From positions 1-42,454 of the IMG/VR virus record IMGVR_UViG_3300029613_000341: a stretch of 42,454 nt of DNA. One strand, written 5' to 3'. Source of the DNA: a virus (lineage: Duplodnaviria; Heunggongvirae; Uroviricota; Caudoviricetes). This document shows positions 1 to 41,757 of the stretch, piece by piece. Position 1 is the stretch's first letter, and every line of letters starts with the position of its first letter. The notes under the pieces were generated by a model that was not told where the DNA came from, made no database searches, and worked only from the letters and a program-made list of their open reading frames with translations. A program made the translations under genes and the position numbers.

Positions 1-1719
1 ATGATTTTTAGGGATAGCTTGAGAGTATTACCTTATGGTCGAGTAGATAATGATTTCTTCCAGATAGAAGAAAGACGTTCATGGAATGCAGGGCGATATT
101 ATTGGTCTAATAGAAGGATTTTTGGTTATATTGGAATTACTCAATCCAGTAATAAAGAGCTGAAAGATAAGTCGGGGAGAGAGGGATTCATAAGAAACCA
201 GGCTGCAAGAGAACTGAAAACTATTATATCTAATTTGTTAACTGAACTTGCTGATAGATTTTTTGGTTCACGTTCTGATGACCGTAAAGAGCTTTTAGAA
301 CAAGTTAAGCGTGAAAAAGAGTTAAGAAAATCTGCTCAACAACAAGCTCGAAAATCAACACAAAAAAGTTTTTCAGAAGCTTTGAAGAATCAGACACCAG
401 TTCTTGATGCTTCCTTGGAGGCTGTTAAAAGGCTGAAAACTAAGCTTGATAAAACTGATGGTTCGTTAGATTTAAACTATCTTAAAATTATAGACAGTGA
501 TCTTACAAACTTAGATGCGTTGCGCAGTGAAATTAAAACGCCTATCAAACCTCCAAAACTTGGAATGTATGAAGAGAAATATAGAGACTACAGAGATAAA
601 TTTAATGAGTTCTCTGCGTATATTCTACAAATGAAGTTAGCAATTAATAAACTTGATTCTGAATTAAATAAACTTGAGCCTTCATTGTCAGCGAAAAATC
701 ACCTTGAAAAAAATCAAGGTATTATTAATTCTAAACTAACTAAGTTTAATAACACGATAGAGGAGAAGATACATTCTCTTTTAAAAAAATGGGCCGATGA
801 AATAAAGGTTGATCGAAGTGATTATTATGCTAAAACTATATCAGTTGTTGATTCAATAGATAATGATTCACAAATTGAAAATGTGTTTAATTTGCTCGAT
901 AGTTTATATGTTGAGTCAGTTGATACCCTAACTTTCAAATATCAATCAATAATAAAAGGTCTCGATAGATTATTTGAAGGTATAAACTTAGATTCAGCAT
1001 TCTCATTATCTGAAGAAGAACGCTCATATTTTGAAGAAAAAGCTAAAAGTTTAAACGCGCTTGCACAGTTAGGTATTAGTGTTGAGATAATATCTCATGA
1101 ACTTGAAGAAATGGATTCTATGGTAACCAGAGGACTAAACTCTCTTCCTACTTCTGTAAAAGAACACCCTGGTTTTTCATTGGCGTTAAATGCTCACAGA
1201 TCGCTTACTCAACAAATACGTTTCTTATCACCTTTGAAAATATCAGGTTATCAATCCAGGCAGAGAATAACTGGAAAAAATATCATGGATTATGTCCTGA
1301 AGTTCTTTGGGGAGCGTTTCGAACGGCAACGAATAACTATTGAATTTAGTGAAGAGTTTAAGCAAATCGCAATAACAGATATACCATCAAGGATCTATCC
1401 TGTTTTTACTAATATTATCAACAATGCAATGTATTGGGTCAGTCTGTCAAATAATAGGCTCATAAAGATTGGTTTTGTGAATTCTTTGGTTATCATAGCA
1501 AATTCTGGTCCGGCAATTGATACCGATGATATCCCGCGACTATTTGAACTATTTTATAGCAAAAGAGCAAATGGACATGGGGTAGGTCTGTATCTATGTC
1601 GAGAAAACCTTGCTGTTGCACATCATAAAATATGGTATTCAGAACCTGATGAAGGCGATAACTATTTAATAAAAGATGGCGCTAATTTTGTGATCCAGTT
1701 CAATGGAGTGGAGTTCTAA
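1..1719 (+). CDS. Histidine-kinase-like protein: coiled-coil-rich region, HisKA-like H-box, C-terminal GHKL (HATPase_c-like) ATPase; ORF is open to base 1, so the 5' end may lie outside the window
   Basis: Long ORF in frame 1. H-box-like I-S-H-E-L-E-E (His codon 1096-1098). C-terminal ~130 aa carry N-box-like NIINNAMYW, G1-like ANSGPAID and G2-like GHGVGLYL motifs. Visibly AT-rich compared with the phage backbone. Confidence 0.55.
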   Translation: MIFRDSLRVLPYGRVDNDFFQIEERRSWNAGRYYWSNRRIFGYIGITQSSNKELKDKSGREGFIRNQAARELKTIISNLLTELADRFFGSRSDDRKELLEQVKREKELRKSAQQQARKSTQKSFSEALKNQTPVLDASLEAVKRLKTKLDKTDGSLDLNYLKIIDSDLTNLDALRSEIKTPIKPPKLGMYEEKYRDYRDKFNEFSAYILQMKLAINKLDSELNKLEPSLSAKNHLEKNQGIINSKLTKFNNTIEEKIHSLLKKWADEIKVDRSDYYAKTISVVDSIDNDSQIENVFNLLDSLYVESVDTLTFKYQSIIKGLDRLFEGINLDSAFSLSEEERSYFEEKAKSLNALAQLGISVEIISHELEEMDSMVTRGLNSLPTSVKEHPGFSLALNAHRSLTQQIRFLSPLKISGYQSRQRITGKNIMDYVLKFFGERFERQRITIEFSEEFKQIAITDIPSRIYPVFTNIINNAMYWVSLSNNRLIKIGFVNSLVIIANSGPAIDTDDIPRLFELFYSKRANGHGVGLYLCRENLAVAHHKIWYSEPDEGDNYLIKDGANFVIQFNGVEF

Positions 1720-1720
1720 T

Positions 1721-3469
1721 ATGACAGTGGCAAATTATAATTCTCTTGTCCAGAAAACTTTCTGCGAAAATGCAATTCGTTCCGTTGTCATGATTGATGA
1801 CGATTTTCTGACGTATTCTGAATCAATCAGGGCGTTGAATAACGAAGTTGATTTAGACTACAACAAAATTGACTCATCTAAACGAGCCGCTACTCTTGAG
1901 AGCTTTTTTCAATCTAAAAATATGATTTGTGATGTTGACAATGGTTCTGTTAATTTCGATGTGGATCGGATTAGAAAATCAGATCTTATTATTGTAGATT
2001 ATCATCTTGATAATAATGCACCTGATAAAACACTTAAACTATTACAAGATTTGAAAGACTCCGATCATTTAAATATGATTGTAATATATACTAGAGAGAA
2101 TTTAGAAACGGTTTGGATGCAGATATCATCGACTCTCAAAGGTGCTCTGGATATCAACAGCTTGATCATTGACTACGATAATGAAGATGTCCAAAGTTAT
2201 TGGGAAGACGTTGTATTACCGAACTTAAATGATAATGGTAATAAAGCTCTCACAAGAGATGAAACAATAGCCTATATTAAAGACAGTAAGCCTTGTAGAA
2301 GAATTAAAAGATTAATACATGATGATGCTGTGTTGGAGGATCAAAAGGATAAAAACTTCATTGCAAAAATGATTGCAGAATATGCTGTGTCTAGAAATGC
2401 AATTATTTCTAGCAACACATCTGGCAATGTCATTCGGGGTGATGAAAGCGGAGTAAAATGGATTCAATGTGGTAATATCTTTGTCTCCCTATTTCATAAG
2501 GTTCAAGATGATCATGAAAACGATGGAGATAGGATTTGGCAAACTCTCAATGATTCTCTCATTGAATGGAAACCATCTTATTATCAGTTAATAAAATCTG
2601 AAATTCAGAATGCAATCGAAGCTGAGGCTTTATCTTTTGTAAATCATTTGGCTAACGATCATTACGGTCAAGCTGCGTGGTTAAATGAGATATTAAAATC
2701 AGACTCGCCTGATATTAGATGTAGAAATATTGACTTTGTATTTGGTAATTTATCAGAAGAGCTTTATCAAAGACTTAAAAATAATAATACGCTGGATGAA
2801 TTTATCAAAAGTGTTTTTGATAGCTATTCAAATGAATACGCTAACAGCGGAGTTGCTGCATTGCTCCAATATTGCTCTTCAAAAATGGATCTGCCATCAA
2901 ATAATGATACTTATCACGAAATGTATCATGCTTTAAATATGAATTTGTCTTCAAAGAATTTTGAAGATGGTCATATTTCTACTGGCACTATTTTCTTTGA
3001 TACAGAGTCGAACAAATGGTATTTATGTGTATCTGCGGCATGTGATTTGGTTCCTACTCAGGGTAACGACCCTCACCATGTAAGATTAAGTCCGCACAGG
3101 CTCATTAAAGTTCTGGAGCTTTTTAACGCCAGTCAGAGTAAAGCATTGCCATTTGCTGAACATTCGAAATATATATATGTAATGCATAAAAATCAAAGAA
3201 AATATCTCTCTATTTTCGAAGGGGATAAAACGCTTCCTGTTGTTGATTATATGGTGGTGTTGAATCATGGAACAACAGTTGATGGCGAAGAAAAAAATAT
3301 TATTTCTGCCGTGTTTTTAAGTAATATGGATGGCAACGTGCAAAATGTTCCTGTCCGACTCAAACTTAAATCTCAACTGAGAACTGGTTATGCAGAAAGA
3401 TATCAGGCTATAGCGTCTCAGTATAGCTCAAGGATTGGTGTGGATTATGTATCAATGATGCTACCATAA
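1721..3469 (+). CDS. Receiver (REC)-like domain protein with ~450-aa C-terminal domain of unknown function
   Basis: ATG at 1721 one base after the upstream stop (TAA 1717-1719), GGAG-type RBS just upstream. N-terminal ~130 aa have the receiver pattern: VVMIDDD acidic pair, DLIIVDYHL with candidate acceptor Asp (codon 1997-1999), MIVIYT. Remainder has no motif I recognise. AT-rich. Confidence 0.5.
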   Translation: MTVANYNSLVQKTFCENAIRSVVMIDDDFLTYSESIRALNNEVDLDYNKIDSSKRAATLESFFQSKNMICDVDNGSVNFDVDRIRKSDLIIVDYHLDNNAPDKTLKLLQDLKDSDHLNMIVIYTRENLETVWMQISSTLKGALDINSLIIDYDNEDVQSYWEDVVLPNLNDNGNKALTRDETIAYIKDSKPCRRIKRLIHDDAVLEDQKDKNFIAKMIAEYAVSRNAIISSNTSGNVIRGDESGVKWIQCGNIFVSLFHKVQDDHENDGDRIWQTLNDSLIEWKPSYYQLIKSEIQNAIEAEALSFVNHLANDHYGQAAWLNEILKSDSPDIRCRNIDFVFGNLSEELYQRLKNNNTLDEFIKSVFDSYSNEYANSGVAALLQYCSSKMDLPSNNDTYHEMYHALNMNLSSKNFEDGHISTGTIFFDTESNKWYLCVSAACDLVPTQGNDPHHVRLSPHRLIKVLELFNASQSKALPFAEHSKYIYVMHKNQRKYLSIFEGDKTLPVVDYMVVLNHGTTVDGEEKNIISAVFLSNMDGNVQNVPVRLKLKSQLRTGYAERYQAIASQYSSRIGVDYVSMMLP

Positions 3470-3540
3470 TTATTATATTTTAGGCGTGGTGATTTTTTTT
3501 CGCCATGCCTATTTTATATTTATCATCACAATGATGTTGT

Positions 3541-3957
3541 TTATTTTTGTTTAAGTCTTCTAAGCTTCATGCATTCTAATGAGAATAATAATAGAGTTGT
3601 GCTGTATATAAAGCCAGAGTTAGTTAATAACTTTAAATTTAATGCTTCAGGATTTTCACTGAGAAAGTGAAAGGCATAAACTAAGTATACAGCTAAAGTA
3701 GCCGTTCCAATTGTTGGTCCAATATCGCCTTGATCATGAGGTTCAAGGTTTACATTGAACTTGAAGATTAGCCATTCAAATCCCCAAGTAAAAAAAACAA
3801 CTAATATCATGGCTGCGAATAATTTCGCGATGTTATCTGCTGATGGATTCATCAGAACAGATTGTTTCTGAAAAAATTCACAAAGTGAGAGTCCGAAAAA
3901 AATAAAAAAAAGTGGTCTGGAACTAAATTTTTCAAAAACTTTGAATAGGGTTTCCAT
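3541..3957 (-). CDS. Small hydrophobic (membrane) protein, unknown function
   Basis: 138-aa ORF with several hydrophobic stretches (LFFIFFGLSL, LFAAMILVVFFTWGF, IGTATLAVYLVYAF), directly downstream of and co-oriented with the P4-type integrase; AT-rich. Confidence 0.35.
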   Translation of the reverse strand: METLFKVFEKFSSRPLFFIFFGLSLCEFFQKQSVLMNPSADNIAKLFAAMILVVFFTWGFEWLIFKFNVNLEPHDQGDIGPTIGTATLAVYLVYAFHFLSENPEALNLKLLTNSGFIYSTTLLLFSLECMKLRRLKQK

Positions 3958-3995
3958 TTTCTTTACCTTCAGGATTATATTAGCTATTCTGATAC

Positions 3996-5225
3996 TTAGG
4001 CTACCAGAGCATTTGATCTTTGAGCTTGAACGTAATCACTCCACCATTGCATCAAACTCTGTCGCTCTATCAGATATTCTGCACGATTGTATGCTGCGAT
4101 AATTTCATCTTTTTTCGAGTGGGCAAGCGCTGCCTCAAGAACTTCAGCTCTGAATTTACCAGACTCCTCTGCCGCTGTTCGTGCAATAGAACGCATACCG
4201 TGAGCTACAAGCTCGCCTCCGAACCCCATTCGGATGATAGCTGCGTTGGCTGTTTGTTCATGCATATGATTAAGAGGCGCTTTTATGCTGGGGAAAACCC
4301 ATTCTCTATGCCCACTTATTGATTTCATTAATTCAAGGATGCGCAAAGCTTCTTTACTCAAAGGAACTTTGTGAAGCTTTTTCATTTTCATGAAATCAGC
4401 AGGAATGTTCCAAATGCTGTTGGTTGTATCAATATCAGACCACCTTGCGCGAACGGCTTCACCCGGACGAACCCATGTCAACAATTGCCATTCAATTAGC
4501 ATACGTGTTTCCAACCGGATTGACGCATTCGTCAAAGATTCCATAAACCTTGGCAATTCGCTTGGGGGAAGGGCAGGCATATTTTGCTTTTTTGGTTTAC
4601 TGAATCTTTGACCAAGGTTGTCAGCCGGGTTGAACTCAATAAGTTCTTCAGTAGCTGCCCACCGGAAGATTTCATTCAGACGTGAAATGATACGGCGTAG
4701 AGTTTCCAATACGCCTCGTTGCTCAATAGGATCAAGGTGTTGTTTTAAGAGCTTAGGTCGGATCTCATTGATAGGGACATTACCCAGACCGGGAAAGACA
4801 TTTCTCTCTAAGCTGCGCCAGATGTCTGCTGCATGGTCTTGTGAGATACCTGATGTCTTTACCTTCTCATCTAACCATTTCCGCGCTACGGCTTGGAGAG
4901 TGTGCTCAGTAGCACTCTTTAATGCCTTCGCCTTATCGTTGTTATGGATTTGGGGATCAACACCATTTGCCAGAAAGGAGAGATATTCATCACGTAAGGC
5001 TCTGGCTCTTGCAAGGGTAAGGTGAGGATATGTCCCAAGGCTCATTTTGGTTCTTTTCTTGCTCACTGGTACTGCATACCTGAAATACCAATTTTTCTTG
5101 CCTCCTTTCGCCAAAGGAGCGATTCGTAGAATCAGACCATCACCGTCAAACAAGTTGATTTCTTTATCGGCTGGCTTGGTGCTTTTGATTTCAGTGTCAG
5201 TGAGCTTCTTAGCGATTTTTGCCAT
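3996..5225 (-). CDS. int: Tyrosine recombinase/integrase, P4 (CP4-57 IntA-like) family
   Basis: ORF 3996-5267; most likely start is the Met of MAKIAKKLTDTEIK (5225). N-terminal arm-binding region typical of P4-family integrases, C-terminal catalytic motifs (AHGMRSIART, AAYNRAEY). Lies ~170 bp from the ssrA 3'-end fragment, the usual tmRNA-int arrangement. Confidence 0.85.
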   Translation of the reverse strand: MAKIAKKLTDTEIKSTKPADKEINLFDGDGLILRIAPLAKGGKKNWYFRYAVPVSKKRTKMSLGTYPHLTLARARALRDEYLSFLANGVDPQIHNNDKAKALKSATEHTLQAVARKWLDEKVKTSGISQDHAADIWRSLERNVFPGLGNVPINEIRPKLLKQHLDPIEQRGVLETLRRIISRLNEIFRWAATEELIEFNPADNLGQRFSKPKKQNMPALPPSELPRFMESLTNASIRLETRMLIEWQLLTWVRPGEAVRARWSDIDTTNSIWNIPADFMKMKKLHKVPLSKEALRILELMKSISGHREWVFPSIKAPLNHMHEQTANAAIIRMGFGGELVAHGMRSIARTAAEESGKFRAEVLEAALAHSKKDEIIAAYNRAEYLIERQSLMQWWSDYVQAQRSNALVA

Positions 5226-5319
5226 TTTGGGACCCTCGGTTTTTGGACCCTTCTTAGTGGGTCCCATTCAGGGTGCCATAACTCGTAGTTCTCAGCAATT
5301 CTCACTGGACGACAATAGA

Positions 5320-5356
5320 CGTAAAAAAGCCCGCAGAGCTTGTGCTGTGTGGGCTT
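5320..5356 (-). terminator. Imperfect hairpin plus T5 on the minus strand; probable remnant of the original ssrA terminator
   Basis: Minus strand reads GCCCACACAGC-ACAA-GCTCTGCGGGC followed by TTTTT, ~35 bp downstream of the displaced ssrA 3' fragment. Confidence 0.3.
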
Positions 5357-5390
5357 AGTAGACTTCATTGAACTTCAAACAACTAAAAAG

Positions 5391-5435
5391 TGGTGGAGCT
5401 GGCGGGAGTTGAACCCGCGTCCGAAATTCCTACAT
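5391..5435. repeat. att direct repeat (45 bp identical to the ssrA 3' end at 41395-41439)
   Basis: TGGTGGAGCTGGCGGGAGTTGAACCCGCGTCCGAAATTCCTACAT occurs at both positions; the copies diverge immediately afterwards (ACC here, CCT at 41440). Confidence 0.85.
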
Positions 5436-5549
5436 ACCATTTTTAATATAGTGAAAACAGTTATTTATATTTAAAAACAGAATGTTAGTATTTTGCGGTG
5501 TTTGTCCGTTTTAGGCATTTTTAATGCTCTGCCGCCAAAATGCCGCCAC

Positions 5550-6569
5550 TTATTTACCTTGAGAATCTATAGGTAAGATCCCCTTAAAAATCAAAAAATC
5601 TGGATCGTAAGCATAATTGGCTAAAAAATCACCGTTATTGGCAGTTGCTTGGAAAATAATTGTATTTTGATCAATTAGCATGTACAGAGATATCAATATA
5701 TCTCGTAATCCACGAAACATTTCTTTTATTTCTTTTTCATCTGAAAATGATGTTTCTATTCCTAAGTTTGATATCGGATCAAAAATCTCAAATTTGTTGA
5801 CTTCTCTTTCATAATTAACTCCTAGTTCTCTACACAGCCATACCACTTGTGCTTCAATGTTCTCTAAATTAGATATGTTAACTTGTTTTGGGTAAAGCTG
5901 ATTGTATCTTGCTATTTCATGCCCAATGTTGTTATATATATTTTCTAATTTTTCAAGGAATGATTTATCAACTTCATTGTTATATCCAGTGGAGATTGAG
6001 GATTTTGTGAATATTTTTTTATATAATGAGTAGGTATGAACTACAGATAGTTTAATTGTGTCTTTTTCGAAAGTTGTATTATCTCGACGAGAAAGGGTAA
6101 ATGACGGTAACGTTTTAAACATATCCGAATAATTCTTGAGGTGAGCGTAGTAAGCATCACTGCGGTTTTTCTCAGTCACTAGATCTATCTGTTGCTGTGT
6201 TTTCCTAATTTGATTTTCCGTTTGTATTGTTCTGTGAATGTTAGCGACTATAGCTACAAAGGGTATCGAAAGGGAAAGAAGAGCGATAGGCAACTTGCTT
6301 ATTTCAATGAAGTTTGAAAATCCATCAGCATCAAATTGAGGAGAGTGTCCCATCCATGAGAATATACCGAAGTATAAGGATGAGATAATAGGTATTCTGA
6401 TGGATTGTTTAAATAAATTTTGTTTTGTTAGCCTTTCCTCAGTCATTTCAAAATAATTATTATTTTTGTTTTTTGTGTATTCAATAAATAGATATATTAA
6501 ATAAAGAATTATAAGGAACGTAGATATTTCTGGTTTTTTTATATAGCTAATTACGAATTCTTGAGTCAT
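5550..6569 (-). CDS. Membrane protein of unknown function (prophage moron between attL and int)
   Basis: ORF 5550-6581; the Met at 6569-6567 overlaps the int stop as ATGA (TGA 6568-6566), suggesting translational coupling. About three N-terminal hydrophobic helices, ~200-aa soluble C-terminal part. Strongly AT-rich. Confidence 0.5.
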   Translation of the reverse strand: MTQEFVISYIKKPEISTFLIILYLIYLFIEYTKNKNNNYFEMTEERLTKQNLFKQSIRIPIISSLYFGIFSWMGHSPQFDADGFSNFIEISKLPIALLSLSIPFVAIVANIHRTIQTENQIRKTQQQIDLVTEKNRSDAYYAHLKNYSDMFKTLPSFTLSRRDNTTFEKDTIKLSVVHTYSLYKKIFTKSSISTGYNNEVDKSFLEKLENIYNNIGHEIARYNQLYPKQVNISNLENIEAQVVWLCRELGVNYEREVNKFEIFDPISNLGIETSFSDEKEIKEMFRGLRDILISLYMLIDQNTIIFQATANNGDFLANYAYDPDFLIFKGILPIDSQGK

Positions 6570-7594
6570 GGTGTGGTCCATTTTAATCTATATAAAGGGT
6601 TTTTTGATACTGCATCCTCTAAATGATCAGGTGCAAAATGTGCATAAACCATAGTCATTTTTATATCCGAGTGACCAAGGATGTCGCGCAACACGAGTAT
6701 GTTTCCGCCGTTCATCATAAAATGGCTAGCGAATGTATGGCGCAGTACGTGGGTGCATTGGCCCTCCGGTAGATCTATACCTGCCCGTTTTACTGCTCGT
6801 TCAAAGGCTTTTCTACATGGTGAGAATAACTTCCCTCTGTTCTTTGGGAGTTCGTCATACAGCTCCTGTGATATGGGTACTGTTCTGTTTTTCTTGCCTT
6901 TGGTCTTTGTATAAGTAATTCGGTATTTCGATATTTGGTGGCCCTGTAGGTTTTCTGCTTCACTCCATCGCGCACCAGTAGCCAGGCATATTTTTGCAAT
7001 CATTAGTAGGCTGGTGTTTTGAGATTCGGCGCAGGCATTAAGCAGGCGTTTGATTTCGTCCGTGGAAAGAAAAGCCAATTCACCTTCAGCAATTTTGAAG
7101 GTTGGAAGCCCTGCCAGTGGGTTTGGTGCGGACCAGTGCCCTAGTTTTTTCAATGTACCGAACACCGATGACAGATTGCGTTGTTCAAGATTTACCGTGC
7201 GGGGCTTAACCGGTGACATGAGCACGCCATCTTCGTTTTTGATCTCACCTTTTAATCTGGCTTCCCGGTACTTTGTGAAATCACCTGCTGTCAATTCAGA
7301 AGCGATGGGATCGCCAAGCCCATTACAAATGATTTTTAGCTTAGCCATTAATCGCTTAGGGTCAGCGAGTGTCTGACCGTACAGGGAATACCATTGCTCA
7401 ATCACTTCTGACAGTGGTCGCCGATCTTCCTTTTCTCCCAGCCAAGGTTTCTTGTTTACCTCATCCATGGTGAAATTCTCAAACGCAATGGCTTCGCCTT
7501 TCGTCGCAAATTGTTTGCGTACGCGTTTGCCATCTCTCCCGTTTGGGTAGCATTCACATAACCACTTTCCGTTCGGCTGTTTTCTGATCGTCAT
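6566..7594 (-). CDS. int: Phage integrase (P2/186-type tyrosine recombinase)
   Basis: 342-aa ORF with catalytic motifs HVLRHTFASH and LGHSDIKMTMVYAHF; recalled similarity to P2 Int; immediately downstream of cI. Confidence 0.9.
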   Translation of the reverse strand: MTIRKQPNGKWLCECYPNGRDGKRVRKQFATKGEAIAFENFTMDEVNKKPWLGEKEDRRPLSEVIEQWYSLYGQTLADPKRLMAKLKIICNGLGDPIASELTAGDFTKYREARLKGEIKNEDGVLMSPVKPRTVNLEQRNLSSVFGTLKKLGHWSAPNPLAGLPTFKIAEGELAFLSTDEIKRLLNACAESQNTSLLMIAKICLATGARWSEAENLQGHQISKYRITYTKTKGKKNRTVPISQELYDELPKNRGKLFSPCRKAFERAVKRAGIDLPEGQCTHVLRHTFASHFMMNGGNILVLRDILGHSDIKMTMVYAHFAPDHLEDAVSKNPLYRLKWTTP

Positions 7595-7596
7595 GA

Positions 7597-8235
7597 TTAG
7601 ATGCTCTTAATCACTTTTACCACACGCCCTACAACGTCTACGTCATCAACTGCACATTCAAAGGTTGTTTCTTCCTGATGAACAACAAGCTTATTTCCGG
7701 GAATTCGAGCTACTTTTACGATGCTTTTCACTCCATCAATATCAACAAGCCAGGAGCCATTACTGATCTGTTTTACAGATACATCAACAATAAAACTTTC
7801 TGTTGTCGTTTGTATGAATAGATAGTTTGACGAGTCGCCCTCAACCAACCTGCTATCTAATAAAATTTCGTCATATGATTGAAGTTCACCATTTCTTAAC
7901 TCTGTGTATTTGATACTGGGAGCTACGATTTTAGAAAGTGGTCTAATTGTGACGTCATTATCATTTTTGAGAATGTTTACGTCACTGTTATCTGCATACA
8001 TATCACCCTGTCCGGTTGCCAACCAAAGAAGCGAGATCCCGGTTTCTAGTGCACATTGAATTACCCATTCTGCTGGAAAACTATCTCTTAAGTATCTGTT
8101 TGCCATGGTACTTTTTGATACTTTTAAGTGTTCGCAGAGTTGTTGGCGTGAGCTGAAATTGTAGGCTTTTATCAGCCTGTTGATGGCATCACGACCCCCA
8201 CTATCGTTTCCACCCTTGATTAGACTCATAATCAA
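7597..8235 (-). CDS. cI: Immunity repressor, phage 186 CI-like
   Basis: Matches my recollection of 186 CI over its length (NRY.R, CALETG..L.WL.TG.G, GLWLVDI.G..SI, FEC..DD....GRVV.V); divergent from the early operon. Confidence 0.8.
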   Translation of the reverse strand: MIMSLIKGGNDSGGRDAINRLIKAYNFSSRQQLCEHLKVSKSTMANRYLRDSFPAEWVIQCALETGISLLWLATGQGDMYADNSDVNILKNDNDVTIRPLSKIVAPSIKYTELRNGELQSYDEILLDSRLVEGDSSNYLFIQTTTESFIVDVSVKQISNGSWLVDIDGVKSIVKVARIPGNKLVVHQEETTFECAVDDVDVVGRVVKVIKSI

Positions 8236-8240
8236 ACCCC

Positions 8241-8269
8241 TTGACGTATATAAAATGCGATCTTAATAT
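8241..8269 (+). promoter_or_regulatory. Putative early lytic promoter (sigma70-like -35 TTGACG, 17-bp spacer, -10 TAATAT)
   Basis: TTGACG at 8241-8246 and TAATAT at 8264-8269 in the cI to cox/apl intergenic region, oriented towards the early genes. Confidence 0.35.
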
Positions 8270-8345
8270 CCATTCATGGTTTGAAAAGCAAAACCAAACC
8301 ACATAAAACGAGATGAGACGATTACAAACTAAGAGATACTGCACT

Positions 8346-14277: not shown

Positions 14278-14591
14278 GAAACGTTGCCCCCAGGAGGATT
14301 CATTCTGATGGGGGCTAGTTTGGGCAACGAGTGAAATAAGGTGTAAGGTCATTTTGATAAATGATCGTCTGCTTTGTGCAAGATGCAAACGTTTCTTCTG
14401 CTAACTTTCGTTAATTAACGAATGGCAGACTAATTCGCAACGGATAATCTGAATTTTGTAAGATTATGGGCATTTCTATAAAATTTACTAATAATAACCT
14501 TACAATGTACACTACCGATTGAATTTTCCATAGTTGGCCTTTGGCTCTACTTACCATCTATGTTTATGTATTTTATCAAAATGGACTAAAA

Positions 14592-16484
14592 ATGAACAAT
14601 ACGTACATCAAAGACTATATAGAATATTACCTTAGCCTTACAACTGAACCTCAATACGCCATTATGCTTAAAGGTGCTTGGGGATCAGGTAAAACTTGGT
14701 TCATTGAACAAGTTCTTGAAGAATATAAGCAGAAGAATTCAGAGTTTAAATTTCTAAAAGTGAGTTTGTATGGCGTCAACTCTATTAAACAGATTGAAGA
14801 TGAGTTCTATCGTCAACTTCATCCTGTCCTATCAAACAAAGCCCTTATCTTTGGTGCAAATGTACTAAAAAATACGCTTAAGGCTACTTTCAAGATCGAT
14901 CTCAATGGCGATAATAAATCTGACGTTGATGTCAATACCAATGTTCCCACCATTAATCTTAACGATTTTAGTAGAAAACCAGATGGTTTTGTGCTGGTCT
15001 TTGATGATATCGAGAGAGCTGGTATAGATTTACCAATTTTATTTGGATATATAAACCACTTTGTAGAAGTAAACGGATACAAAGCGATCTTGGTTGCCAA
15101 TGAAGAAGAAATAATCAATAGAGAAAAGCGAATAAATAATGATGATGAGAAATCTAGCAGCGAATACATGAGAACAAAAGAAAAGCTTGTTGGTAAAACA
15201 TTTGAAGTAACGTCAGATTTACATAGTGCTTGTAATGTTTTTTTGGGCGTAATTAGCAGTTTACACGTTGCTAATATATTTAAAGAAGATATGCAGGCCA
15301 TAGAAGACATCTATGTGTCGGCGAAATATAATAATCTAAGACACTTGAGGCAGTTCTTTCTTGATGTACAACGCATCATTTCCCTTTTGGGAAATAAATA
15401 TGTCAGCAACGACGATTTTATGAGGGTATTTTTCCAGCAGTTGTTAATTTTCTCGATAGAGTACCGGGGAGGGAACCTTAACTACGAGGAATTCGATTCA
15501 ATCAGCAATGTTAATTATGGTATGTTTTTAGGTAAAGAGCGTACCAAAACTAAGTATGACATGATCGTCGAGAAATATTCATCTCCTGTATTAACCGAGA
15601 AGTTACTGGATGGTGCGTACTGGAGGGAGCTAATCTGTGATGGAAAGGTAACGAGTGAACTTCTCGCTCAGTTGGATATTACGCGATTTTTTAGAAGCAC
15701 CGATGCCCAAGCATGGGAGTATTTGTGGAACTATCGAGAACTTAATGAAACTATGCTTAATGAGCAGTACGCCATTGCCAAGGATAATCTATTTTCAGGT
15801 AAGATCACTTCCTTAGGTGAACTCCTGATGACCGCGAGTATTTTGCTGGACATGGCGAAAGAAGGTCTAACAACAGATGATGTTCATGATCTCATAAATG
15901 AGACAAAACAGAATATAAATAATTATTATAATAGACTTAGAGCTGAAGATATACATAAGGAATATGCGCAAACGCATTATAACGAATTAAGGGCATGGCG
16001 TGGCTTTGGTTTTCTTGACAGGGATAGCGATGAATTCAAACTCATTATTGAGCATATTGAGATAGCGAAGAAGAAACGGTTTGATGAATCAATTCCGGAA
16101 TTTGCGTTGCAGTTCAGCGATGAGTTGCAAAGGGGAAACTTATCGTTTGTATCTGAATTGAGTCATTCTAATAATAGGCAGTTAAATCTTCATAATGTGC
16201 CTTTTTTACACTTGGTTCCTCCTGAAGTTTTCATTGAAAGCTATAGGAAACTTGACCCAGTCCTCATGAGGAAACTGGCATTTAGCTTGCGGAATCGTTA
16301 TTCTGATGGGGATGCTAGAACCAGACTGACCGAAGAATACAACTGGTTGATTAACCTAAAAGAGATAGCTGTAGATTTCACTCAAAACGCAGCCAATAAC
16401 TCCTTTCAGGTTTTTCACGTAAAGTTTTTTATTGACTATGTATTAACTAGCGCAATCAAATTCTTTACTGAGGGAACTGATTAA
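14592..16484 (+). CDS. P-loop NTPase (Walker A GAWGSGKT, Walker B VLVFDD; possibly KAP-type), ~630 aa
   Basis: ATG at 14592 (ORF open from an alternative TTG at 14541); Walker A and B motifs present; long C-terminal region without motifs I recognise; strongly AT-rich; followed by a terminator. Confidence 0.7.
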   Translation: MNNTYIKDYIEYYLSLTTEPQYAIMLKGAWGSGKTWFIEQVLEEYKQKNSEFKFLKVSLYGVNSIKQIEDEFYRQLHPVLSNKALIFGANVLKNTLKATFKIDLNGDNKSDVDVNTNVPTINLNDFSRKPDGFVLVFDDIERAGIDLPILFGYINHFVEVNGYKAILVANEEEIINREKRINNDDEKSSSEYMRTKEKLVGKTFEVTSDLHSACNVFLGVISSLHVANIFKEDMQAIEDIYVSAKYNNLRHLRQFFLDVQRIISLLGNKYVSNDDFMRVFFQQLLIFSIEYRGGNLNYEEFDSISNVNYGMFLGKERTKTKYDMIVEKYSSPVLTEKLLDGAYWRELICDGKVTSELLAQLDITRFFRSTDAQAWEYLWNYRELNETMLNEQYAIAKDNLFSGKITSLGELLMTASILLDMAKEGLTTDDVHDLINETKQNINNYYNRLRAEDIHKEYAQTHYNELRAWRGFGFLDRDSDEFKLIIEHIEIAKKKRFDESIPEFALQFSDELQRGNLSFVSELSHSNNRQLNLHNVPFLHLVPPEVFIESYRKLDPVLMRKLAFSLRNRYSDGDARTRLTEEYNWLINLKEIAVDFTQNAANNSFQVFHVKFFIDYVLTSAIKFFTEGTD

Positions 16485-41394: not shown

Positions 41395-41439
41395 TGGTGG
41401 AGCTGGCGGGAGTTGAACCCGCGTCCGAAATTCCTACAT
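41395..41439. repeat. att direct repeat (phage core overlapping the ssrA 3' end)
   Basis: Identical to 5391-5435. Confidence 0.85.
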
Positions 41440-41757
41440 CCTCGGTACTACATGCTTAGTCAGTCTTTACATTCGCTTGCCAGCTGCGGACGGACACGCC
41501 ACTAACAAACTAGCCTGATTAAGTTTTAACGCTTCAACCCCAGGCAGGGCTTCCACGCGATCTCTTTTGGGTTTGACCTCTCTTGATCCCCGTCCTAAGA
41601 GCGGAGGCTAGGGAGAGAGGGCTCTAAGCAGGTTATTAAGCTGCTAAAGCGTAGTTTTCGTCGTTTGCGACTATTTTTTGCGGCTTTTTACGAGGCCAAC
41701 CGCCCCTCGGCATGCACCTTGGGTTTCGCAAATCCCGTCGAATCCAGAATCAGCCCC
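41395..41757 (-). ncRNA. ssrA: tmRNA (SsrA), 363 nt
   Basis: Reverse complement begins GGGGCTGATTCTGGATTCGACGGG and ends ...GTTCAACTCCCGCCAGCTCCACCA; contains the tag reading frame GCAAACGACGAAAACTACGCTTTAGCAGCTTAA (ANDENYALAA-stop); matches E. coli ssrA as I recall it. Confidence 0.95.

What the first reader, a model, noticed from the sequence alone, without database searches (positions are those of the whole stretch)
5550..6569. AT-rich membrane-protein gene translationally coupled to the phage integrase (cI-int-orf operon)
The int stop (TGA 6568-6566) overlaps an ATG (6569-6567) of the next ORF as ATGA, and the gene fills the space between int and attL that is normally empty in P2. Being transcribed with the repressor and integrase, it would be expressed in the lysogen, the expected pattern for superinfection-exclusion or abortive-infection cargo. 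It encodes ~3 transmembrane helices plus a ~200-aa soluble domain with no recognisable motif.
Basis: partly seen in the sequence, partly recalled or inferred. Interest (0 to 1): 0.55.

Follow-up and report, generated by a model that had tools for sequence, protein, structure and literature searches.

The report
Uncharacterised membrane cargo gene behind prophage integrase
A real, conserved but functionally unknown inner-membrane protein gene sits in the swappable cargo slot between the integrase and the attachment site of a Fels-2/186-type E. coli prophage; related prophages carry known anti-phage genes in the same slot, so it is a good but untested candidate for a new single-gene phage-exclusion factor.

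Summary
A 339-aa ORF (5550-6569, minus strand, 30.7% GC) starts at an ATG that overlaps the integrase stop codon as ATGA. It lies inside a 36-kb Fels-2/186-like prophage bounded by a 45-bp ssrA repeat.

The gene is real. It has a confident AlphaFold model and is under purifying selection. Its family has more than 1,000 clusters (50% identity).

No Pfam, NCBIfam, PADLOC, PDB or BFVD match reaches significance. The only hit is PHROG 17460, of unknown function.

The family has a conserved membrane core and a variable, probably cytoplasmic, C-terminal domain.

In 75 of 80 viral contigs with a homologue the order is cI-int-X. X usually overlaps or abuts the integrase stop. Integrases stay about 90% identical while X alleles are 29-87% identical.

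Among the 80 closest integrase relatives the same slot holds:
- X: 21
- an unrelated ~400-aa family: 17
- GapS1: 8
- a dCTP deaminase defence gene: 1
- nothing: 16 (as in Fels-2 itself)

It is not shown: neither expression nor any phenotype has been tested. The slot was already described as a minor P2 defence hotspot in 2026.

The parts
5550..6569 (-). Gene X: 339-aa predicted inner-membrane protein. TM1 is about aa 15-32, TM2 about 55-73, TM3 about 93-111. A conserved polar helix runs to about aa 151, followed by a variable alpha/beta domain (152-339).
   Evidence: ORF and translation; PGAP CDS WP_148119614.1; AF2 pLDDT 85; phrog_17460 E=4.6e-55; family of 1135 clusters at 50% identity; dN/dS 0.05-0.15.
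6566..6569 (-). ATGA overlap of the int stop codon (TGA 6568-6566) with the X start codon (ATG 6569-6567).
   Evidence: Sequence. Overlap or a gap of 10 nt or less is conserved in 64 of 77 homologous loci.
6566..7594 (-). Tyrosine integrase of the prophage (P2/186 type).
   Evidence: Pfam Int_N 7.7e-28 and Phage_integrase 7.4e-25.
7597..8235 (-). CI immunity repressor (186 type), first gene of the leftward lysogenic operon.
   Evidence: Pfam Phage_CI_repr 1.4e-32 and Phage_CI_C 2.3e-35.
8236..8312 (.). Switch region between cI and the apl-like gene. It is expected to hold the face-to-face pR/pL promoters. A promoter-like site on the + strand lies at 8241-8269.
   Evidence: Consensus scan. The face-to-face pR/pL arrangement of 186 is described in PMC7498355. 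pL itself was not located.
5436..5549 (.). Conserved attP arm between the X stop codon and the att core. It is present in relatives whatever cargo they carry.
   Evidence: blastn similarity resumes at 5548-5557 in loci with related, unrelated or no cargo. The arm starts 3 nt after the int stop in empty-slot phages.
5391..5435 (-). att core: displaced 3' end of ssrA (45-bp exact repeat), marking the prophage boundary.
   Evidence: Exact repeat with 41395-41439. Similarity to strains 13P477T and E371 begins at 5391. Sub-threshold Rfam tmRNA hit.
5327..5341 (-). Terminator-like hairpin plus T-run just beyond the att core (the native ssrA terminator). It is the first terminator-like site downstream of cI-int-X.
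   Evidence: Scan. The role as operon terminator is inferred.
41395..41757 (-). Intact ssrA (tmRNA) at the other prophage end. It contains the second att core copy (41395-41439).
   Evidence: ARAGORN; repeat.

Best explanation
Gene X is an accessory (moron) gene of a Fels-2/186-like temperate phage. It sits in the single-gene swap slot between the int stop codon and the attP arm. I infer that it is made in the lysogen from the cI-int transcript by translational coupling.

Most likely it is a phage-exclusion or abortive-infection factor. Three transmembrane helices (N-terminus out, C-terminus in) anchor it in the inner membrane.

The conserved part is the TM2-TM3 hairpin plus a roughly 50-Å polar stripe on the helix that extends TM3 into the cytoplasm. 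I propose that this is the effector or oligomerisation module, for example a gated pore that collapses membrane potential, or a dock on a conserved inner-membrane host protein. The poorly conserved cytoplasmic alpha/beta domain would then set which invader is recognised.

Shown here:
- the gene is real;
- its location and cassette boundaries;
- conserved coupling to int;
- dispensability for the phage;
- co-occupancy of the slot with known defence genes.

Inferred: lysogenic expression, anti-phage function, topology and mechanism.
For: 1. Real, constrained gene.
- 1135 family clusters at E<=1e-3 and 213 at E<=1e-30.
- AF2 pLDDT 85.
- dN/dS 0.05-0.15.

2. Inside the mobile unit. The att core is at 5391-5435. 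Two other strains carry the identical prophage with a different left flank.

3. Precise cassette. Similarity to relatives with unrelated cargo stops at about 6578 and resumes at about 5550.

4. Conserved position. The order is cI-int-X in 75 of 80 IMG/VR loci and in all four look-ups of distant alleles. X overlaps or starts within 10 nt of the int stop in 64 of 77 loci. No terminator-like site or above-chance promoter lies between int and X.

5. Slot census among the 80 closest integrases.
- X: 21
- a ~400-aa family: 17
- GapS1-like: 8
- dCTP deaminase (PADLOC 2e-146): 1
- empty: 16
GapS1 is a described anti-phage system (bioRxiv 10.1101/2023.03.28.534373). The int-att interval is reported as a minor P2 defence hotspot (PMC13586616).

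6. Dispensable. The slot is empty in Fels-2 and in the plaque-forming phage MLG42.

7. Recurrence with lysogeny modules. A homologue (E=4e-19) directly abuts the LexA/S24-type repressor at the end of an unrelated Vibrio Vinavirales prophage.

8. Architecture.
- The invariant residues cluster in aa 47-145; the C-terminal part is variable.
- K+R counts are 3.6 for loop 1, 1.95 for loop 2 and 3.9 after TM3.
- The conserved polar residues 112-145 fall in one 140-degree arc of the helix.
Against: - No expression data and no phenotype.
- No significant similarity to any known defence, Sie, holin or channel family in Pfam, NCBIfam or PADLOC. No significant match in PDB sequences, PDB folds or viral folds.
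- Location in a hotspot is circumstantial. Most occupants of this slot are themselves uncharacterised, and one carries nucleotide-metabolism genes (DCD-like plus ThyX).
- Selection on close alleles is purifying, with no gene-wide sign of an arms race.
- TM2 is only weakly hydrophobic, and the topology rests on the positive-inside rule alone.
- AT-rich cargo may be silenced by H-NS.
Confidence: 0.5

Rival explanations
1. Classical superinfection exclusion at the DNA-entry step. X sits in the inner membrane and blocks genome translocation of incoming phages, in the manner of P22 SieA, T4 Imm or K139 Glo. It does not sense infection and does not harm the cell.
For: Membrane anchoring. Placement in the lysogenic operon. 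The K139 family gene glo, near int, is called a periplasmic protein and the family's immunity gene in PMC4870250; that Glo mediates exclusion and sits in the control region is from my recollection of Nesper et al. 1999, which is not held.
Against: The bulk of the protein is predicted to be cytoplasmic and only about 19 residues face the periplasm. No similarity to any Sie family in Pfam. Strong conservation of the intramembrane and juxtamembrane residues together with a variable soluble domain fits an effector-plus-sensor layout at least as well.
Confidence: 0.2
2. Lysogenic-conversion factor unrelated to phage defence. X would be a membrane protein that changes host physiology, for example envelope stress tolerance, colonisation, or immunity to a toxin or bacteriocin.
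For: Many AT-rich morons are fitness factors. Nothing in the sequence points specifically to defence. At least one occupant of the slot is metabolic (DCD-like plus ThyX).
Against: Distant alleles persist in one phage slot alongside GapS1 and dCTP deaminase. The family recurs next to repressors in unrelated temperate viruses. No signal for secretion or enzymatic motifs.
Confidence: 0.15
3. A phage-cycle function tied to integrase. Because X is translationally coupled to int, it might modulate integration or excision, or lysogeny maintenance, for example by membrane sequestration of a regulator.
For: Conserved overlap or abutment with the int stop. Location directly next to the attP arm.
Against: Fels-2, MLG42 and 16 of 80 close relatives lack any gene here. 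Others carry unrelated cargo with about 90% identical integrases. In Vibrio the homologue follows a repressor and not an integrase.
Confidence: 0.07
4. HEPN-type RNase effector tethered to the membrane, similar to HEPN-TM or Tha.
For: One family member, P0255, gives a sub-threshold Pfam HEPN_RiboL-PSP hit (E=2e-5; 25.1 bits against a cutoff of 28.4) and carries RNAIAHG. One subclade has RD(L/I)L(V/I)H in the last helix.
Confidence: 0.03

Closest known systems
Cargo of the integrase-att hotspot of P2-like prophages (PMC13586616, NAR 2026); hotspot concept of Rousset et al. 2022 (PMC9122126)
   Same: Same position: between int and the att site, inside the att-delimited element. It is AT-rich, swaps as a cassette, and shares the slot with recognised systems (GapS1, dCTP deaminase).
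   Different: That paper reports only that 3% of recognised P2 defence systems lie there. This protein family is not recognised by PADLOC, and I found no description of it. Here it is the commonest single occupant (21 of 80) in the Fels-2-type integrase clade.
Tha (tail-activated HEPN system) of Staphylococcus aureus prophages (PMC11087260)
   Same: A single-protein, prophage-carried accessory gene that protects lysogens against other phages. The paper describes a C-terminal HEPN effector domain and no discernible N-terminal domain.
   Different: Tha is a soluble HEPN RNase with an Rx4H motif and has a cognate inhibitor, Ith. X has three transmembrane helices, no HEPN motif and no adjacent partner gene.
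Vibrio phage K139 Glo and classical Sie proteins (P22 SieA, T4 Imm)
   Same: Envelope-located products of temperate or lysogeny-linked genes that exclude superinfecting phage. glo is part of the K139 control region near int. This comes from PMC4870250 and from my recollection of Nesper et al. 1999, which is not held.
   Different: No detectable sequence similarity. Glo is periplasmic, whereas X is mostly cytoplasmic by prediction.
SLATT / CBASS 2TM membrane effectors and Kiwa KwaA
   Same: Small helical membrane modules thought to disrupt or sense the membrane. There are weak hits: SLATT_6 E=0.12, PADLOC 2TM effector E=0.17, 2TM_IV in 2 of 58 members, KwaA in 1 of 58.
   Different: All hits are far below the cutoffs. 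For the window protein they fall on the least conserved part, TM1 (aa 4-49). There is no cyclase, SLOG or KwaB partner. Resemblance is at most generic.
PHROG 17460
   Same: Direct family membership (E=4.6e-55, aa 15-300).
   Different: The PHROG carries no functional annotation, so this adds only that phage-encoded homologues were already clustered.

Membership tests
P2-like prophage int-att accessory/defence hotspot cargo | Gene lies between the integrase gene and the att site, inside the att-delimited element. | tested here: met
   att core at 5391-5435 and 41395-41439; X at 5550-6569; int at 6566-7594. The flank changes at 5391 in other strains.
P2-like prophage int-att accessory/defence hotspot cargo | The interval is hypervariable between otherwise collinear, closely related prophages and includes known defence systems. 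| tested here: met
   Integrases are about 90% identical. The cargo is X (29-87% identical), a ~400-aa family, GapS1, a dCTP deaminase, or nothing.
P2-like prophage int-att accessory/defence hotspot cargo | Confers resistance to phage infection. | not testable with these tools
   Needs plaque or efficiency-of-plating assays.
Lysogenic (cI-int) operon member | Same strand, with no intervening terminator or promoter, and start codon coupled to the upstream stop. | tested here: met
   ATGA overlap. No terminator-like site on the minus strand between 8235 and 5550. Promoter-like hits number 6, below the chance expectation of 9.4. Coupling is conserved in 64 of 77 loci.
Lysogenic (cI-int) operon member | Transcribed in the lysogen. 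| not testable with these tools
   No transcriptome data. pL-driven cI-int transcription in 186 is background knowledge.
HEPN RNases (RiboL-PSP-HEPN, HEPN-TM, Tha) | Rx4-6H catalytic motif in a four-helix HEPN fold, with a score above the family threshold. | tested here: not met
   The window protein has RDILIS. The motif occurs in 16 of 236 members only. Pfam is below the gathering score in the one member that hits. No HEPN structure among the fold hits.
SLATT / CBASS 2TM effectors | Significant match to SLATT or 2TM effector profiles, and association with a nucleotide-signal generator. | tested here: not met
   SLATT_6 E=0.12 (12 bits against a cutoff of 100). PADLOC 2TM E=0.17. No partner gene in the slot.
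Kiwa (KwaA/KwaB) | KwaA profile match plus an adjacent KwaB (DUF4868). | tested here: not met
   KwaA hits 1 of 58 members at E=5e-3. X is a single-gene cassette.
Known superinfection-exclusion families in Pfam/PHROGs | Sequence match to a Sie, Imm or Cor type family. | tested here: not met
   No such hit in Pfam or PHROGs.
PHROG 17460 | Significant profile match over most of the protein. | tested here: met
   E=4.6e-55, aa 15-300 against profile positions 5-292 of 343.

The most novel reading that the evidence does not exclude
X founds a previously unrecognised family of single-protein, membrane-embedded anti-phage factors with a fold not represented in the PDB. It has a conserved TM-hairpin and polar-stripe effector and an exchangeable cytoplasmic specificity domain. 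The family is carried with lysogeny modules by temperate viruses of at least two realms: Peduoviridae and Vinavirales, with a marginal match in an inovirus. Its dosage is hard-wired to the repressor-integrase transcript by stop-start coupling.
Probability: 0.35. Interest if true: 0.65.

Novelty: new variant of a known kind. Interest (0 to 1): 0.45.

Why it matters
If X blocks phages, it would add a widespread defence family that current detectors (PADLOC, Pfam) miss. The family has more than 1,000 clusters at 50% identity across Enterobacterales, Pseudomonas and Vibrio.

It would also show that the small int-att slot of Fels-2-type prophages is mostly filled by unrecognised systems, namely X and the ~400-aa family. 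That means defence content in P2-like prophages is under-counted.

The layout, a conserved membrane core plus a variable cytoplasmic domain with many natural alleles in an otherwise constant prophage backbone, is a ready-made system for mapping specificity determinants. The conserved stop-start coupling to int suggests a simple way for phages to express cargo only in the lysogenic state.

If X has no phage phenotype, it is one more AT-rich moron of unknown role.

Tried and rejected
- Family scans of the window protein in Pfam, NCBIfam and PADLOC gave only noise: DivIC E=0.11, SLATT_6 E=0.12, 2TM effector E=0.17.
- Pfam and PADLOC scans of 58 distant members gave sporadic, unrelated hits.
- PDB sequence searches with the single protein and with the profile found nothing, or only designed coiled coils.
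- Foldseek against the PDB and BFVD gave nothing at E<=1e-3. Echoes of CorA, ExbB, TolQ and ZorAB at E>1 were not used.
- The AFDB library was unavailable.
- The HEPN lead from P0255 was followed and rejected for this allele.
- A search with the conserved core alone, looking for fusions to known domains, returned only fragments.
- The genome-contig scan gave only 6 loci. A scan with the more divergent alignment failed.
- Searches for positive selection found purifying selection, with dS near saturation.
- Literature searches found no description of the family. Brenes & Laub 2025 and Nesper et al. 1999 are not held, so a published test of a homologue cannot be excluded.
- The 37-kb 'plasmid' carrying a truncated copy looks like an assembly artefact and is not evidence of an episome.

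Full report
**Setting**

The window is E. coli chromosome. The segment 5391-8300 is 100% identical to strains 13P477T and E371.

ARAGORN finds one intact tmRNA gene at 41395-41757 on the minus strand. Its last 45 nt (41395-41439) are repeated exactly at 5391-5435. Between the two repeats lies a 36-kb P2-type prophage of the 186/Fels-2 kind:
- CI repressor, 7597-8235, minus strand;
- tyrosine integrase, 6566-7594, minus strand (Pfam);
- on the other strand an apl-like gene, cII, fil, a replication gene and the late genes (annotation of the identical prophage).

Left of the repeat the window carries a second island with a P4-type integrase (3996-5267). Strains 13P477T and E371 have the gab operon there instead. 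The prophage, including the gene under study, therefore moves as a unit whose edge is at 5391.

**The observation**

The minus strand reads ccATGAct at 6570-6563. The int stop (TGA, 6568-6566) and an ATG (6569-6567) overlap by 4 nt. The ORF ends at 5550-5552. PGAP annotates exactly this 339-aa product as a hypothetical protein.

GC is 30.7%, against 45.7% for int and 50.5% for the prophage body.

Hydropathy and the AlphaFold model agree on:
- an N-terminal helix (about 15-32);
- a weaker second helix (about 55-73; Kyte-Doolittle 1.13);
- a strong third helix (about 93-111; 2.18), which continues as one 50-residue helix to residue 151;
- a mixed alpha/beta domain after that.

All points of the finding are confirmed.

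**Is it a real gene?**

Yes.
- PHROG 17460 matches at 4.6e-55.
- A word-indexed search finds 55 clusters, all in Enterobacterales and all 'hypothetical'.
- An exhaustive profile search of 1.84 billion representatives finds 1135 proteins at E<=1e-3 and 213 at E<=1e-30.
- The AF2 model built on 42 homologues has mean pLDDT 85.
- Against alleles 76-87% identical, dN/dS is 0.05-0.11 in the N-terminal half and 0.10-0.15 in the C-terminal half. Integrase gives 0.02-0.03.

**Family anatomy**

Invariant or nearly invariant residues are concentrated in residues 47-145:
- LTKQxLF before TM2;
- P60, G68 and W72 in TM2;
- G83, F87 and ISKLP in the short outer loop;
- P103 and N110 in TM3;
- HRTIQTExQI and KNxxDxYYxHxK on the helix that extends TM3.

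TM1 and everything after residue 150 vary. Against four of five alleles, identity is 44-65% for residues 39-150 and 22-40% for 151-339; the fifth is about even at 52% and 46%.

Over 58 diverse members the mean K+R counts are:

| Segment | Mean K+R |
|---|---|
| N-terminus | 0.8 |
| Loop 1 | 3.6 |
| Loop 2 | 1.95 |
| After TM3 | 3.9 |

By the positive-inside rule the N-terminus and loop 2 face the periplasm, and loop 1 and the C-terminal domain face the cytoplasm.

The conserved polar residues 112-145 all fall within a 140-degree arc of the helix. They form a continuous stripe about 50 Å long, starting at the inner membrane face. This suggests an interface or a lining.

**What it is not**

- No hit reaches a curated threshold in Pfam, NCBIfam or PADLOC, for the protein or for 58 distant relatives.
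- PDB sequence searches are empty.
- Foldseek against the PDB and BFVD gives nothing at E<=1e-3.

A HEPN lead came from one member, P0255 (HEPN_RiboL-PSP E=2e-5, below the gathering score; motif RNAIAHG). It does not generalise. R[NDH]xxxH occurs in 16 of 236 members, in two subclades and at two different positions. The window protein has RDILIS.

**Genomic context across relatives**

- Four look-ups of alleles 27-44% identical all returned the order cI-int-X-att in 186-like prophages.
- Of the best 80 IMG/VR loci with a homologue, 75 have this order. Three of the remaining five lack upstream sequence, and two carry an insertion between int and X or within X.
- In these loci X is 29-87% identical to the window protein, while int falls into classes of 66-68%, about 76% and 89-94% identity.
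- X overlaps the int stop in 41 loci, 18 of them by exactly 4 nt. It starts within 10 nt of the stop in 23 more, out of 77 loci.

Close juxtaposition has therefore been kept while the protein diverged to about 30% identity. This argues that co-expression with int is selected.

In the window no terminator-like site lies on the minus strand between cI and the end of X. Promoter-like matches in the region number 6, below the chance expectation of 9.4. The first terminator-like hairpin is the native ssrA terminator at 5341-5327, just past the att core.

That pL drives cI-int in 186 is background knowledge. PMC7498355 describes the face-to-face pR/pL arrangement.

**The slot is a swap cassette**

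blastn against relatives carrying unrelated cargo loses similarity at about 6578, which is 10 nt before the int stop. Similarity returns at 5548-5551, at the X stop codon, and continues through the attP arm to the core.

I classified the slot among the 80 closest integrase relatives in IMG/VR (89-95% identity). Three loci had the int stop mis-scored and were corrected by hand.

| Slot content | Loci |
|---|---|
| X family | 21 |
| Unrelated ~400-aa family (34-99% identical among themselves; the phage Cartapus member is annotated 'RES-like' but has no Pfam hit) | 17 |
| GapS1-like proteins | 8 |
| dCTP deaminase (PADLOC dCTPase, 2e-146) | 1 |
| dCTP-deaminase-like plus ThyX pair | 1 |
| Other | 2 |
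| Empty | 16 |
| Undetermined (contig ends) | 14 |

All sampled cargo is 31-35% GC. Fels-2 and the plaque-forming Yersinia phage MLG42 have empty slots, so X is not needed for the phage cycle.

GapS1 is a described anti-phage system (bioRxiv 10.1101/2023.03.28.534373). A 2026 survey lists the int-att interval as a minor P2 defence hotspot holding 3% of recognised systems (PMC13586616).

**Beyond Peduoviridae**

The family profile matches proteins in several other contexts:
- Pseudomonas chlororaphis (4e-83, next to umuDC);
- Xenorhabdus (7e-72, between terminase and an integrase);
- a Vibrio Vinavirales prophage (4e-19). There the gene directly abuts a LexA/S24-type repressor at the end of the element;
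- marginally, gp02 of the Vibrio inovirus VALG_phi6 (2e-6).

Linkage to a lysogeny module thus recurs in an unrelated virus.

**Interpretation**

The best-supported reading is that X is lysogen-expressed accessory cargo, and most likely a phage-exclusion or abortive-infection factor. The conserved membrane core would be the effector or docking module, and the variable cytoplasmic domain the specificity module.

The evidence is contextual and structural-predictive. Expression, phenotype and mechanism are inferred. I put 0.5 on this statement.

Rivals:
- a DNA-entry block of the classical Sie type (0.2);
- a non-defence conversion factor (0.15);
- an integrase-linked phage function (0.07), weakened by empty and swapped slots;
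- a membrane HEPN RNase (0.03), tested and not met.

**Prevalence and novelty**

This exact allele is in 2 of 5426 complete E. coli genomes. DNA-level relatives are detectable in 22.

The kind of thing, hotspot cargo in a P2-like prophage, is known, and the slot itself was described in 2026. The protein family is undescribed in the material I could search, unrecognised by current defence databases, and without a known fold. I rate it a new variant of a known kind, with interest 0.45.

Noticed in passing
window 14541-16484 (+): A 647-aa KAP-family P-loop NTPase matches the PADLOC candidate system PDC-S49 (E=1e-159) and Pfam KAP_NTPase (4e-22). It sits in the classical P2 defence hotspot between the replication/DinI genes and portal gene Q. 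The prophage therefore carries at least two cargo loci.
   Followed up: partly
window 1-5267: A second mobile element lies in tandem at ssrA. It has a P4-type integrase (3996-5267, minus strand), a 138-aa hydrophobic ORF (3541-3957, minus strand; hydrophobicity read from its sequence), and a HEF_HK/HATPase_c histidine kinase (1-1719) paired with a Response_reg_2 protein (1703-3469). It is about 33% GC. The same island sits next to homologous prophages in other strains (L005, L015).
   Followed up: partly
L114 5035-6228, L004 3165-4370 and 15 further loci: An unrelated ~400-aa soluble protein family is the second commonest occupant of the same int-att slot (17 of 80). Members are 34-99% identical to each other. 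The family has no Pfam or PADLOC hit; phage Cartapus annotates its member as 'RES protein, NAD+ binding'. It is another uncharacterised candidate.
   Followed up: partly
L125 5028-6785 (-); L179 5041-6596 (+): Rare occupants of the slot: a 585-aa dCTP/dCMP deaminase defence protein (PADLOC dCTPase, 2e-146), and a dCTP-deaminase/dUTPase-like protein paired with ThyX thymidylate synthase.
   Followed up: partly
L049 3669-5885; L037 3793-5684: In two viral contigs the X homologue is separated from int, or split, by about 1.1-1.2 kb of inserted DNA. In L049, residues 9-58 and 52-326 of X lie 1.2 kb apart. This looks like an IS-type disruption. L024 may carry a truncated copy.
   Followed up: no
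NZ_CP019275.1 (L002), whole record: The 37.4-kb 'plasmid' p13P477T-2 is the same prophage plus the chromosomal ssrA-smpB-ratA-bamE-recN flank, with many frameshifts. It looks like an assembly artefact and not an episome. Its copy of X is truncated by the record start.
   Followed up: partly
P0255, P0242, P0249, P0256 (residue about 211); P0011, P0018-P0025 (residue about 280): Two subclades of the family carry canonical-looking R[ND]xxxH motifs at different places in the variable domain. P0255 reaches a sub-threshold HEPN_RiboL-PSP hit. This could be chance (16 observed against 6.5 +/- 2.6 in shuffles), or an RNase activity in some alleles.
   Followed up: partly
L018 70-1743 (-) (Vibrio phage 10N.239.312.A01_PE001); L019 435-1274 (-) (VALG_phi6): Distant homologues occur in non-tailed temperate viruses. 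In the Vinavirales element the gene abuts the LexA/S24-type repressor (coordinates 1137/1138) at the end of the genome. The inovirus match is marginal.
   Followed up: partly
window 5323-5400 (-): Rfam gives a partial, far sub-threshold IsrM sRNA hit (53 bits against a gathering score of 376) over the ssrA terminator region. It also gives a sub-threshold tmRNA hit stretched over 5391-5719, which is driven only by the 45-nt 3' fragment.
   Followed up: no
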